Made by a program: the position numbers and the translations under genes. A model generated the notes under the pieces. It did not search any database. It saw only the letters and a program-made list of their open reading frames with translations, and was not told the DNA's origin. Shown here one piece after another: positions 13,085 to 15,780 of a stretch of DNA of 64,000 nt. Origin of the DNA: Octopus sinensis (lineage: Eukaryota); contig NC_043003.1 of assembly GCF_006345805.1 (NCBI RefSeq), forward strand, positions 92,132,001 through 92,196,000. Direction: 5' to 3'. How positions within the stretch are numbered: position 1 is the first letter of the stretch; each line of letters starts with the position of its first letter.

Positions 13085-13430
13085 ATGATTGTGGTTAAGA
13101 AGTAGACTGCCTTAATAACGCAATTCCGAGTTCAGTCCCAAGGCGTGCTACCTTGGCCAAGTATCTTTTTATATAGCCTCTGACCTGGCAAAGCCTCGTG
13201 AGTAGATTTGATGCATGGAAACTGAAAGAAGCCTATCGTAATATATATGTGTGCGTGTGTGTGGGTATGTGTGCATGCGTACGTGTGTGTTTGTACCTCC
13301 TTATCTTGATTGTGTGATAGTTGTAAACAAGTGTCGCAGTCAAACAAGCGTCTCTTTCGTTCCCAATTTCCATGAAAGCTCCTATGGCCATGGGAAAAAT
13401 ATCCTACTTGGAAACAGGTGAGTGCTGTTA
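13085..13430 (+). mobile_element. Diverged SINE family A-like copy
   Basis: ccttggccaagtatctt...gaaactgaaagaagcc matches family A. Confidence 0.6.
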
Positions 13431-13699
13431 AGGGTACTTGTGCGTGTATCTATGTGCATTGCACAGTTTAAGTTTTCTTAATAGGAAAGTAATAGAACCA
13501 ACAGTCTGATCTATTCTTGAATGGCCAAGTTTATCTACAAACTATTTCTGAATCCTAAAGCATAACAAAAGCCAACCTTATATACAAAGAGTAGGTTTTC
13601 GGAGCCACAGGTGAAATTTGATTTAATCTTAGATATTTCATATTGTTTAAAGTGGAACAAAATGTACAAGAACGACCGTAAAAATAATCAACTTATCAA

Positions 13700-15690
13700 A
13701 GAAAATTTTAAGTATTTTACAAACTAAAATTCTAGCAAAGGGGTTAAAGTTTACACAAAACCCTCGCAAATCGAACCCGAATGAAATTAAGGATAACATT
13801 GGATTTCTGCTGAAAATTACGCCTCACAGAAGCACTTCACAACTACATCGGGGAAGATGACTCAATAGTAAAAAACAAAAGCGAATACTATCCTACAAAA
13901 GGTAGAAATAAAGCACTTGATGCTTTTTATTAACACATTACCAATTATGGTATAGAAGCGATCACTTTCATAATTGCAGCACTCAGATTCATAATTGCAG
14001 CACTCAAATTCATCCTACTGAACAGCTATTTCATGTTCGATACAGTTTACTATCGATAAAAATGTGGAATTGCAATGCGAAACCGAGCTGCTCCAGTGAT
14101 TGCGAACCTTGTAATGGGTTACCTAGAACTTGAAATATACCAATCATCACTACAAAAATACGATACCTCATTTCATTGCTATTTAAAGGAGAACTGGAAG
14201 AGGTATTTGGACGATTGTTTTATACTTTGGAAAGATAGCATAGACAAACTCCTCGATTTCAAAATAATGCTTAACAATACAGCAACATACAATTCACCAT
14301 GGAGCACAGCAGTAAATAACTGCATTTTCTTGACATCCTAAATAAAATAGTCAATAACCATATCGAAACAGACATCTTCTATAAACCTACAGGTTCTAAA
14401 TAATACTTATTATTCAACTCATGCCACCCCAAACACATAAAAATTAATATACCTTATAAGCTAGCGAAAAGAATCTGTACAATAGTTTCGGACACCTATA
14501 CTCGTGAACGAAGACTCCGTGAACTCAGATCTATACTAATCAAAAGACATTACACAATATCATCAATAAATGATGGCATTAAACAAGCTAAGGAAATAGA
14601 TATATGAGCATTAAGGGAAGTTAACCGAAATACTACACCAGACTTAAAAATACCCCCATACATCGCCACACATAACCCTAGAAACAATGAAGCCTTCAAC
14701 ATTATCATCCAAAATCTACCCATCCTCACAGAAGATAAAACAATGAACAAAATTTTAGGCTCACATAAAATTATCAAAGGCAAAATGCAACCGAAATCAT
14801 TGAAAAAAATATTAAGCAGCGCAAGACTATATCCATTAACAACGGAACCAAAAGTGAAAAAATGTGGTCGACCAAACTGTGGTACATGCTTCCACCTTTT
14901 GGAGGGTTCAGAATTCCACTTTAAACAAGGTGAAATATTTAAGATTAAATCAAATTTCACCTGTGGCTCCGAAAACCTACTCTATGCCATTACATGATTA
15001 GGGTGTGGTAATCATTATATTGGCCAAACAGGAATATCACTCCGTCGAAGAACTACTCTCCACAAAGAACAAATCCGCCACCCACAATACAGACAGATAC
15101 AGGTCAGTGAACATATAGAAAGGTGTGTTAGAAACCTTAATCCTAATTTTCTAAATTTCCACTTCTATCAATGTTCACAGAACACCTCAGTAAAGCAAAG
15201 AATGAATAAAGAGGCAACTTTCATCAATAAATATCTTCCACAATTCAATATGAACACATACCTTAATACAGAACACTATAAACCTTTCAATTAATACCAT
15301 TAACCCCCATACATCCCATAAACCATTCACATTACAAATTTATATCTACCAAATCCAGAATTACTTACCTCCCTTATACATAATCTTTTTACTCAGGGAC
15401 TAGTAGACCCGACACCGTTCGGTAATCGGTACGCATTCAAAGCAGTGATCAGTAATTTTACGAAACCGGTATGCCTTTGAATCTCTTTAACAATTCACAA
15501 TAATGACCTTCATTACCTTTATTCCTACCTCAGTTCATCTAATTGTACATATGTATCATTACTTTTCGTAAAAACCTTTACTTTTTTATTTCCAATGTGC
15601 ATTTTCGCTTATTTTTCTTCCTACTTTCCCCTTACATTTCGACGTGTAGTTTCTATTTTCTTTTTGTTACATTTTTCTATTCTATTCAAT
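13700..15690 (+). mobile_element. Decayed Penelope-like element (Neptune-type Cys-rich linker): RT, GIY-YIG and 3' pLTR
   Basis: GIAM..AAPVIANLVMGYLE, WKRYLDDCFILW, TDIFYKPT, CGRPNCGTC, NLLYAIT*LGCGNHYIGQTG; stops and frameshifts. Confidence 0.9.
15435..15482 (+). ncRNA. Minimal type I hammerhead, G3:C8 core variant, in the PLE 3' end
   Basis: attcaaagca GTGATCA GTA attt TAC GAAA ccgg TA tgcctttgaat; ~10-bp bulged stem I. Confidence 0.75.
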
Positions 15691-15695
15691 TCTAT

Positions 15696-15780
<85 letters not shown>

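What the first reader, a model, noticed from the sequence alone, without database searches (positions are those of the whole stretch)
15435..15482. G3:C8 hammerhead in the 3' pLTR of a Neptune-type Penelope element
Seen: ~170 bp after the GIY-YIG ORF end, on the sense strand, a clean fold with a 10-bp bulged stem I, GTGATCA core, ACCGGT palindromic stem III and a GUA site. The position is where PLE hammerheads are expected, which supports the swapped core being genuine.
Basis: partly seen in the sequence, partly recalled or inferred. Interest (0 to 1): 0.75.

Follow-up and report, generated by a model that had tools for sequence, protein, structure and literature searches.

The report
Hammerhead ribozyme with reversed core pair
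A dead copy of a Penelope-like jumping gene carries a hammerhead ribozyme motif whose central C-G pair is replaced by G-C; related copies carry A-U there, so the pair has co-evolved, and the motif likely still cuts RNA weakly when two copies pair up.

Summary
Window 15435-15482 (+) reads as a type-I hammerhead: a 10-bp bulged stem I, core GUGAUCA, 3-bp stem II, GAAA, palindromic helix III ACCGGU and a GUA cleavage site.

It lies 141 nt after the stop codon of a decayed Penelope-like element (RT, CX4CX2C linker, GIY-YIG) and about 215 nt before the element's 3' end, which abuts a (TCTA)22 microsatellite.

The swapped core is not copy-specific decay.
- No related copy I examined has CUGAUGA.
- GUGAUCA is the state of one subfamily only.
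- The wider family has A3:U8: 67 of 76 distinct copies, and the majority in contigs from four organism labels.
- So 3:8 covaries G:C <-> A:U by two non-CpG transitions.
- Stem I and stem II pairs and the helix III palindrome also change in a compensatory way along the family tree.

A purine-3:pyrimidine-8 hammerhead fold therefore looks selected in the master lineage. Cleavage is untested. Rfam models miss the motif.

Published natural covariation that I could read is only C3-G8 to U3-A8, and the engineered C3G/G8C mutant is partly active.

This copy has no partner motif in the window and is likely a relic. I class it as a new variant of a known kind.

The parts
13984..15294 (+). Decayed 3' part of a Penelope-like element ORF. 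It holds RT motifs B/C (..RYLDDCF.., frame 14060-14341), a thumb/linker with CGRPNCGTC (frame 14608-14997) and a GIY-YIG-like end (HYIGQTGISLRRR, frame 14998-15294). An in-frame stop lies at 14995-14997 and there are further breaks.
   Evidence: Frames were read. Homology to other copies runs from 13984. Relatives with long open frames hit Pfam RVT_1 and GIY-YIG. The window's own fragments give no Pfam hit.
15295..15690 (+). 3' untranslated region of the element (the pLTR-equivalent part); homology with other copies ends at about 15685-15720.
15435..15444 (+). Hammerhead stem I, 5' strand (ATTCAAAGCA)
   Evidence: stem I pairs covary in the family
15445..15451 (+). Core G3 U4 G5 A6 U7 C8 A9 (GTGATCA). 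15445 is position 3 and 15450 is position 8.
   Evidence: 3:8 states
15452..15461 (+). Stem II hairpin GTA-ATTT-TAC (G10.1-C11.1 closing pair)
15462..15464 (+). Core G12 A13 A14
15465..15470 (+). Helix III, the self-complementary ACCGGT (A15.1 ... U16.1). It is predicted to pair with a second copy of itself.
   Evidence: RNAcofold dimer; palindromes kept across subfamilies
15471..15472 (+). H17 (A) and N1.1 (T). The predicted scissile bond lies between them (GUA|U).
   Evidence: Position in the hammerhead numbering; cleavage was not tested.
15472..15482 (+). Hammerhead stem I, 3' strand (TGCCTTTGAAT). The bulged C at 15475 is T in most copies.
15691..15780 (.). (TCTA)22 microsatellite abutting the element's 3' end, the likely insertion target.
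   Evidence: other copies mostly end in (TA)n or other dinucleotide repeats
13585..13658 (-). Short inverted fragment of the same element; it matches the part around 14860-14975.

Best explanation
This is a hammerhead-ribozyme motif in the 3' untranslated region of a decayed Penelope-like retrotransposon copy; its G3:C8 core pair was inherited from a subfamily founder, and the motif is predicted to self-cleave after GUA (15471|15472), weakly and only when two copies pair through the ACCGGU palindrome.

Shown:
- The motif and its place in the element.
- The family majority state is A3:U8, and one subfamily has G3:C8.
- No copy I examined has C3:G8.
- Pairs in stems I and II and the helix III palindrome change in a compensatory way between subfamilies.

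Inferred:
- Selection acted on the active hammerhead fold in master copies, because positions 3 and 8 pair only in that fold.
- The reversed pair supports catalysis, by analogy with engineered C3G/G8C mutants.
- Processing of tandem or multi-copy transcripts is the function.

This particular copy has a broken ORF and no second motif in the window. It is most likely an inactive relic.
For: (1) Anatomy. All invariant hammerhead positions other than 3 and 8 are present.

(2) It is not chance.

(3) The 3:8 states across copies:
- 42 exact-context genomic copies: 21 A:U, 17 G:C, 4 unpaired, 0 C:G, 0 U:A; the reversed-pattern control gave 0.
- 76 distinct CM-aligned copies, sampled through the GIY-YIG protein and not through the motif: A:U 67, G:C 5, other 4, so 94.7% are paired.
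- Contigs of 4 runs carrying 4 organism labels: G>A at 15445 and C>T at 15450 are the majority, and no G>C or C>G row appears.

(4) The two changes are transitions outside CpG. Over the 396-nt 3' region only 4 positions separate the G:C group from the A:U group. Two of them are positions 3 and 8.

(5) Covariation elsewhere in the fold:
- Pair 2.1-1.1: A-U 35, G-C 32.
- Pair 2.3-1.3: G-C 41, A-U 28.
- Whole-structure covariation score: 0.206, against 0.131 +/- 0.008 in shuffles (0 of 500 reach it) and at most 0.102 with slid partners.
- Cells paired: 82.5%, against 30-43% with slid partners.

(6) Helix III stays self-complementary through ACCGGU, ACYGCGGU, ACCAUGGU, ACCAUUGGU and ACCAAUUGGU. 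These follow a ladder-like tree that was built without the motif columns.

(7) H17 is A, U or C in 72 of 76 rows.

(8) RNAcofold gives a double-hammerhead dimer with the 6-bp ACCGGU helix at -22.3 kcal/mol, against 2 x -6.4 for monomers.

(9) Literature, read as passages:
- G8C lowers the rate about 1e5-fold and C3G partly restores it (PMC8495972).
- The same partial rescue was seen in a PLE hammerhead (PMC11167929).
- Natural U3-A8 covariants exist (PMC3088659, PMC4209133).
Against: - No cleavage data exist.
- No RNA run with raw reads was available, so no ends could be mapped.
- Copies do not pile up with 5' ends at the predicted cut. About 4 of the 100 listed rows (159 hits in all) have unrelated sequence upstream.
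- All copies examined keep about 215 nt downstream of the cut site. The RNAs that were copied were therefore not cut at this motif.
- Published PLE hammerheads cleave poorly in vitro (PMC4209133) and are dispensable for insertion in vitro (PMC11167929).
- The engineered G3:C8 rescue is only partial.
- G:C <-> A:U is one evolutionary event, not several. The G:C core in the other subfamilies' context gave 11 hits against 13 in the control, whereas A:U gave 369 against 8.
- On the tree, 4 of the 6 G:C copies cluster and 2 sit in the unresolved base.
- In the youngest sublineages the column aligned with G12 reads U, A or C. Either those copies are catalytically dead, or the conserved G just before that column serves as G12.
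- One sub-branch has an imperfect palindrome, AGCAUGGU.
- The A2 alignment was fitted to the model structure, which leans the pair counts towards it.
Confidence: 0.6

Rival explanations
1. It is a hammerhead-derived fold kept for a non-catalytic role, for example RNA dimerisation through the palindrome or recognition by the element's RT. The 3:8 pair and the stems would be selected for shape, and the motif would no longer cleave.
For: - The youngest sublineages, which have the longest open frames (627 and 563 aa), have U, A or C in the column aligned with G12, yet they keep evolving compensated palindromes and stems.
- All inserted copies examined extend past the cut site.
- In vitro, PLE hammerhead cleavage is weak (PMC4209133, passages) and is not needed for target-primed insertion (PMC11167929, passages).
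- G8C alone lowers the rate about 1e5-fold (PMC8495972, passage).
Against: - Positions 3 and 8 pair only in the catalytically active hammerhead conformation. Their Watson-Crick covariation is hard to explain by a generic scaffold.
- U4, G5, A6, A9, A13, A14 and H17 (not G), which matter for catalysis rather than for helices, are kept in the subfamily founders.
- In the E-type lineage a G directly 3' of stem II is constant while the next base varies (U, A, C or G). This fits a retained G12 plus one inserted base.
Confidence: 0.3
2. Copy-specific or subfamily-specific decay of a canonical CUGAUGA hammerhead, with the G and C arising as neutral mutations.
For: - The copy is old and broken.
- Rfam hammerhead models do not hit it.
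Against: - No CUGANGA core occurs in 42 exact-context copies, in 76 distinct aligned copies, or in the listed variants of 4 runs.
- C to G and G to C are transversions, and they would have to occur together.
- The nearest relatives have A3:U8, not C3:G8.
Confidence: 0.02
3. Chance resemblance within a conserved 3' UTR. On this view the apparent covariation reflects linked neutral changes in subfamily founders.
For: - Related sequences can beat column shuffles without any structure (a caveat stated by the tool).
- The whole 3' UTR is well conserved between subfamilies.
Against: - The descriptor was found in 0 of 200 shuffles.
- Slid-partner controls, which keep relatedness, give 30-43% pairing against 82.5%.
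- Several different helices change compensatorily. The palindrome is restored after each length change.
- Two of only four diagnostic differences fall on the 3:8 partners.
Confidence: 0.05

Closest known systems
Minimal type-I hammerheads of Penelope-like elements (Cervera and de la Pena 2014, PMC4209133; Lunse, Weinberg and Breaker 2017, not readable here)
   Same: - It lies on the sense strand in the non-coding terminal region of a PLE.
- It is a type-I layout.
- Helix III is very short and palindromic, which implies action as a dimer.
- Stem I is AU-rich.
- The family is high-copy, mostly as single motifs in 5'-truncated copies.
   Different: The published consensus is NNN-CUGANGA-...-GAAA-palindrome-UH. 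About 50 representative metazoan rows in supplementary file 2, part 2 have CUGANGA or UUGA(A/U)AA cores. None has a purine at 3 with a pyrimidine at 8. Here the core is GUGAUCA, and AUGAWUA in relatives.
Natural U3-A8 covariants of the hammerhead core (Perreault et al. 2011, PMC3088659; Cercyon PLE of Schistosoma, PMC4209133)
   Same: The C3-G8 pair is replaced by another Watson-Crick pair across a whole family, with the rest of the core unchanged.
   Different: Those variants keep pyrimidine-3 and purine-8. Here the polarity is reversed (purine-3, pyrimidine-8), in both the A:U and the G:C versions.
Engineered C3G/G8C double mutants (Martick and Scott 2006, as cited in PMC11167929 and PMC8495972; a G3-C8 variant is mentioned in PMC3884650)
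   Same: The core pair is identical to the window's motif. These mutants show that the reversed pair can support cleavage, including in a PLE hammerhead (Poseidon of Anolis).
   Different: They are laboratory constructs with only partial rescue. Here the state is natural and fixed in a retrotransposon subfamily.
Double hammerheads of newt and schistosome satellites and of some viroids (Forster et al. 1988, as cited in PMC4209133)
   Same: A weak helix III that becomes stable only when two motifs pair; the predicted dimer is.
   Different: Those have canonical cores and occur in tandem satellite repeats. This motif is dispersed with a retrotransposon.

Membership tests
Hammerhead ribozyme (type I) | Three helices around a junction, with the open end in stem I | tested here: met
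   Seen directly in the sequence. Family pair counts give 82.5% of cells paired, against 30-43% with slid partners.
Hammerhead ribozyme (type I) | Core U4 G5 A6 N7 and A9 | tested here: met
   15446-15449 and 15451. UGA is kept in 70 and A9 in 72 of 76 distinct family rows.
Hammerhead ribozyme (type I) | C at position 3 and G at position 8 | tested here: not met
   G3 and C8 in the window. No relative examined has C3 with G8. The Watson-Crick character of the pair is kept: 94.7% of family cells.
Hammerhead ribozyme (type I) | G12 A13 A14, the A15.1-U16.1 pair, and H17 not G | tested here: met
   15462-15465, 15470 and 15471. In the family, AAA is kept in 70 of 76 rows, U16.1 in 73 of 76, and H17 is G in 3 of 76. 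The column aligned with G12 is G in only 47 of 76, because the E-type sublineages differ there.
Hammerhead ribozyme (type I) | Match to the curated covariance models (Rfam Hammerhead_1 and relatives) | tested here: not met
   No match at gathering score in the 64-kb window. No hammerhead family appears even at E up to 10 in 15300-15620. The same model finds 7 canonical hammerheads elsewhere in this genome.
Hammerhead ribozyme (type I) | Site-specific self-cleavage giving 2',3'-cyclic phosphate and 5'-OH ends | not testable with these tools
   Only assembled contigs of public runs were on offer, so no read ends could be seen.
PLE-associated minimal hammerhead | Short palindromic helix III that allows a dimeric active form | tested here: met
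   ACCGGT at 15465-15470. The MFE dimer contains the 6-bp intermolecular helix. Palindromes of 6-10 nt are kept in most subfamilies.
Penelope-like element, C-terminal EN+ (Neptune/Nematis type) | A single ORF with RT followed by a GIY-YIG endonuclease | tested here: met
   Relatives: RVT_1 plus GIY-YIG in the L118 frame, and GIY-YIG in the 627-aa frame of L117. The window copy matches them at DNA and protein level, but it is broken and its fragments give no Pfam hit.
Penelope-like element, C-terminal EN+ (Neptune/Nematis type) | CX2-5CxxC zinc-finger-like linker between RT and EN (criterion from PMC8557442, passages) | tested here: met
   CGRPNCGTC in frame 14608-14997; CGRSNCGTC in L117.
Penelope-like element, C-terminal EN+ (Neptune/Nematis type) | Pseudo-LTRs from partial tandem or inverted copies | tested here: inconclusive
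   There is one motif in the window and an inverted fragment at 13585-13658. Three long copies have no upstream repeat. One partial tandem (L128) and one inverted pair (L060) were seen.
Penelope-like element, C-terminal EN+ (Neptune/Nematis type) | Insertion into microsatellites | tested here: met
   (TCTA)22 lies at the 3' junction. Most copies whose homology reaches the 3' end run straight into (TA)n, (CA)n or (GA)n.
Penelope-like element, C-terminal EN+ (Neptune/Nematis type) | Placement inside the Neptune clade in an RT phylogeny with reference elements | not tested
   No reference PLE set was at hand. Nematis shares the linker criterion.

The most novel reading that the evidence does not exclude
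A whole, very abundant lineage of Penelope-like elements uses a hammerhead with the core pair in reversed polarity. A3:U8 is the family state and G3:C8 is a compensated offshoot. I found this core in no published natural hammerhead, and the standard descriptors and Rfam models cannot see it. If it is active, natural hammerhead sequence space is wider than the CUGANGA/UUGANAA rule. PLE clades reported to 'lack canonical hammerheads' may then simply carry unrecognised core variants.
Probability: 0.4. Interest if true: 0.7.

Novelty: new variant of a known kind. Interest (0 to 1): 0.6.

Why it matters
The C3-G8 pair sits in the hammerhead active site, and G8 supplies the 2'-OH that acts in catalysis. 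Natural variation reported so far (U3-A8) keeps pyrimidine-3 and purine-8. A retrotransposon family of many hundreds of copies here has evolved with purine-3 and pyrimidine-8, and has switched between A:U and G:C by compensating changes. This is natural evidence that the pairing matters and not the identity of the bases.

It supplies ready-made natural sequences on which to test that idea. It also shows that motif searches built on CUGANGA, and Rfam, under-count hammerheads in retroelements.

It bears as well on an open question: what hammerheads do for Penelope-like elements. The fold is maintained through many subfamily turnovers, even though every inserted copy examined extends past the cut site.

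Tried and rejected
- **Rfam.** No hammerhead hit at gathering score or at E up to 10. The only row was snoR28 on the minus strand, E 0.23, far below its cut-off, so I dismissed it.
- **Single-strand MFE z-score.** It is -0.52, which is uninformative.
- **Minus-strand reading.** The reverse complement holds CTGATCA, but no GAAA/helix arrangement follows it (read by eye). The CM hit is on the + strand only.
- **RNA evidence.**
  - No RNA holder is listed, and all runs are kept as contigs.
  - Contigs show no common start or end at 15471/15472 (table 6: none).
  - The depth dip at 15420-15460 is also present in the DNA-like runs, so it tells nothing.
  - A second read-laying run (X15, X19, X20, X17) did not complete four times because the machine was busy.
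- **Genomic signature of cleavage.** I looked for copies that begin exactly at the cut site. Of 159 hits to the 23-nt post-cut string, the 100 listed almost all keep the upstream motif. About 4 have unrelated or deleted upstream sequence. This gives no support either way.
- **5' pseudo-LTR.** None was found in three long copies. The CM finds only the 3' motif in L117, L118 and L119.
- **The tandem pair in L127.** It turned out to be a 584-bp local duplication of a truncated copy, not a retrozyme-like array.
- **A second, independent G:C event in the other subfamilies.** None was found above background.
- **Earlier scan notes.** Nothing on this motif or sequence.
- **Literature.**
  - Full-text searches for hammerhead with 'A3-U8' found 0 papers. 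With 'G3-C8' they found 1 paper, an engineered variant. With 'C3G' plus 'G8C' they found 2, both engineered. With 'U3-A8' they found 1.
  - The search for G8U/C3A gave nothing relevant.
  - These papers are not held: PMC5785218 (Lunse 2017), PMC1986816 (Przybilski and Hammann 2007), PMC2271363, PMC4447102 and PMC4008931. A prior report of purine-3:pyrimidine-8 natural hammerheads in one of them cannot be excluded.
  - Supplementary file 1 of PMC4209133 was not searchable.
Full report
**What is there**

Window 15435-15482 on the + strand reads ATTCAAAGCA / GTGATCA / GTAATTTTAC / GAAA / CCGG / T / A / TGCCTTTGAAT. In hammerhead numbering:
- stem I is 15435-15444 paired with 15472-15482, 10 bp with one bulged C at 15475;
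- G3 U4 G5 A6 U7 C8 A9 is 15445-15451;
- stem II is 15452-15461, with G10.1-C11.1 plus two A-U pairs and loop AUUU;
- G12 A13 A14 is 15462-15464;
- helix III is the self-complementary ACCGGU (A15.1 to U16.1, 15465-15470);
- H17 is A at 15471, so the predicted cut is after GUA, between 15471 and 15472.

The motif is not a chance match. The 27-nt core occurs once in the window at up to 3 mismatches and in none of 100 shuffles. A structural descriptor of my own finds this site alone, and nothing in 200 dinucleotide-preserving shuffles. Rfam does not see it. There is no match at gathering score in the window and no hammerhead family even at E up to 10 in 15300-15620. The same Rfam model finds 7 canonical hammerheads (CUGAAGA and CUGACGA cores) elsewhere in this genome.

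**Context**

Upstream, on the same strand, lie broken frames with:
- RT motifs (..RYLDDCF.., 14060-14341);
- a cysteine linker CGRPNCGTC (14608-14997);
- a GIY-YIG-like end (HYIGQTGISLRRR, 14998-15294).

These fragments give no Pfam hit by themselves. Relatives in the same genome with long open frames hit RVT_1 and GIY-YIG and carry the same CX4CX2C linker.

[quoted passage not shown] I made no phylogeny to choose between the two.

Homology with other copies runs from 13984 to about 15685-15720. The 3' end abuts (TCTA)22 at 15691-15780. Most other copies end in (TA)n or other dinucleotide repeats, which is the known target habit of these elements.

The family is very large. The 98-aa GIY-YIG piece gave 12,019 first-look candidates, of which 150 were scored at 71-100% identity. 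The 121-nt motif region gave 835 candidates, of which 40 were scored.

The window holds only one motif. This copy therefore has no partner in cis. Together with its broken frame, this suggests it is a relic.

**Is the swapped core genuine?**

But GUGAUCA is not the family-wide state either.

- In the 30 loci most like the window (a query-biased sample that includes the window's own locus), G3 with C8 occurs in 25.
- A pattern that fixes the flanks and leaves positions 3, 7 and 8 free finds 42 copies, with 0 for the reversed control:
  - 21 are A3:U8 (20 AUGAUUA and 1 AUGAAUA);
  - 17 are G3:C8 (9 GUGAUCA, 7 GUGAACA and 1 GUGACCA);
  - 4 are unpaired;
  - none is C:G or U:A.
- I also sampled copies through the GIY-YIG protein rather than the motif, taking the top 30 and bottom 56 of the 150 scored. 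A covariance model built from 29 representatives finds 79 motifs in 209,916 nt.
- In the 76 distinct rows the 3:8 pair is A:U in 67, G:C in 5 and other in 4.
- Contigs of four public runs with four different organism labels, laid at 85% likeness or more, show G>A at 15445 and C>T at 15450 as the majority. For G>A the depths are 137.5 of 167.4, 87.3 of 87.3, 376.8 of 724.7 and 825.4 of 1043.6. No G>C or C>G row appears.

So the family state is A3:U8, and the window belongs to a G3:C8 subfamily that also exists in related organisms.

**Covariation**

G:C <-> A:U needs two transitions, and neither position lies in a CpG (AGT and TCA contexts).

I aligned 44 other rows of the 396-nt 3' region; four of these loci had been fetched twice. 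Only four positions separate the G:C group from the A:U group at the 70% level: 15410 (a CpG), 15422, 15445 and 15450. The groups are defined by the last two, so the informative figure is that only 2 of the other 394 positions differ. Two neutral hits landing on both partners of one pair are therefore improbable.

The half-changed states are rare. In the same context there are 0 G3/U8 copies and 1 A3/C8 copy.

The switch happened once. In the other subfamilies' context the G:C core gives 11 hits against 13 for the control, while A:U gives 369 against 8.

Other parts of the fold covary as well:
- pair 2.1-1.1 is A-U in 35 rows and G-C in 32;
- pair 2.3-1.3 is G-C in 41 and A-U in 28;
- the whole-structure covariation score is 0.206, against 0.131 +/- 0.008 in shuffles (0 of 500 reach it) and at most 0.102 with slid partners;
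- cells paired are 82.5%, against 30-43% with slid partners.

This alignment was fitted to the model, which leans the counts towards the structure. The slid controls and the raw sequences show the same thing.

A tree of 76 copies, built from the flanks with the motif left out, is ladder-like. Along it helix III goes ACCGGU, ACYGCGGU, ACCAUGGU, ACCAUUGGU, ACCAAUUGGU. Its length changes, but it is self-complementary again after each step. One four-copy sub-branch (AGCAUGGU) is imperfect.

Stem II changes from GUA/UAC to GC/GC. H17 is A, U or C in 72 of 76 rows.

Positions 3 and 8 pair only in the active hammerhead conformation. I therefore read their covariation as selection on that conformation in the master copies. 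This step is an inference.

**Mechanism**

Published work, seen as passages:
- G8C lowers the rate about 1e5-fold, and C3G partly restores it (PMC8495972).
- The same partial rescue was seen in the hammerhead of the Anolis Poseidon PLE (PMC11167929).
- PLE hammerheads have short palindromic helices III and cleave, weakly, as dimers or trimers (PMC4209133).

RNAcofold of two copies of the window motif gives the double-hammerhead with a 6-bp ACCGGU helix at -22.3 kcal/mol. Two monomers give 2 x -6.4.

My best reading is a weak, dimer-dependent self-cleaving motif that acts on transcripts holding two copies. One partial tandem (L128, motifs 907 nt apart) and one inverted pair (L060) were seen.

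**Evidence against, and what remains open**

- There is no cleavage or end-mapping evidence. No RNA holder was listed and all runs were contigs.
- There is no pile-up of copy 5' ends at the cut site.
- All copies examined keep the ~215 nt downstream of the cut, so the RNAs that were copied had not been cut there.
- In vitro, the Poseidon hammerhead is dispensable for insertion (PMC11167929).
- In the youngest sublineages (open frames of 627 and 563 aa) the column aligned with G12 reads U, A or C. Over the 76 rows it is G in 47, U in 21, A in 7 and C in 1.
- In those sublineages the G just 3' of stem II is constant while the next base varies: GCG-U/A/C/G-AAAC.
  - This fits a retained G12 followed by one inserted base.
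  - A dead core kept for another role is the alternative, and it feeds the main rival explanation (a non-catalytic, shape-selected element, 0.3).

**Comparison with what is known, and novelty**

Natural 3:8 covariation that I could read is C3-G8 to U3-A8 only:
- PMC3088659, passage;
- PMC4209133, passage;
- supplementary file 2, part 2 of PMC4209133, with about 50 representative metazoan rows, all CUGANGA, UUGA(A/U)AA or UUGAAGA.

Full-text searches found no paper with hammerhead plus 'A3-U8', and only engineered G3-C8 or C3G/G8C cases.

Lunse et al. 2017 and Przybilski and Hammann 2007 were not held, so a prior report cannot be excluded.

I class the finding as a new variant of a known kind: a PLE hammerhead with a purine-3:pyrimidine-8 core pair, invisible to Rfam and to the standard descriptors.

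Noticed in passing
L073:244-294 (-), L109:422-472 (+), and the genome places listed: The youngest sublineages of the same element have the core ...GC-loop-GC-G-N-AAAC.... The G is constant and N is U (most copies), A, C or G. This reads either as a G12 followed by one inserted base or as a lost G12. Helix III there is ACCAUGGU, ACCAUUGGU or ACCAAUUGGU.
   Followed up: partly
L054:3150-3291: A perfect head-to-head inverted repeat whose two arms each hold a minimal hammerhead with a U3:A8 core (UUGAAAA ... GAAACCGGUA). It belongs to a different element, next to a copy of the family studied here.
   Followed up: no
L120-L126 (own genome): Seven canonical Hammerhead_1 matches (CUGAAGA or CUGACGA cores, 5-bp stem II). 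Two of them (L125, L126) lie 431 nt apart on the same strand with identical flanks, which looks like a tandem retrozyme-like repeat.
   Followed up: no
window 13984 and 13967-14013: Five other copies (L002, L025, L028, L029, L030) lose homology with the window at the same point, 13984. This point sits inside a 21-nt unit repeated 2.2 times. The RT motifs upstream of motif B are missing between the KGLKF-like frame (13651-13860) and 14060. This may be a shared internal deletion that marks a non-autonomous subfamily.
   Followed up: no
window 13124-13280: A ~150-nt stretch matches six of the fetched loci at 74-81% identity, in varying orientation and distance from the element. It is probably another dispersed repeat.
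   Followed up: no
own genome C9:36253-1319783: Six copies with the same 35-nt string lie on one strand within 1.3 Mb at the start of contig C9, which suggests a segmental or tandem large-scale duplication.
   Followed up: no
L127:1976-3121: A 584-586-bp unit is duplicated at 100% identity. It holds a 5'-truncated copy that starts about 20 nt before the motif, plus its flanking microsatellites.
   Followed up: partly
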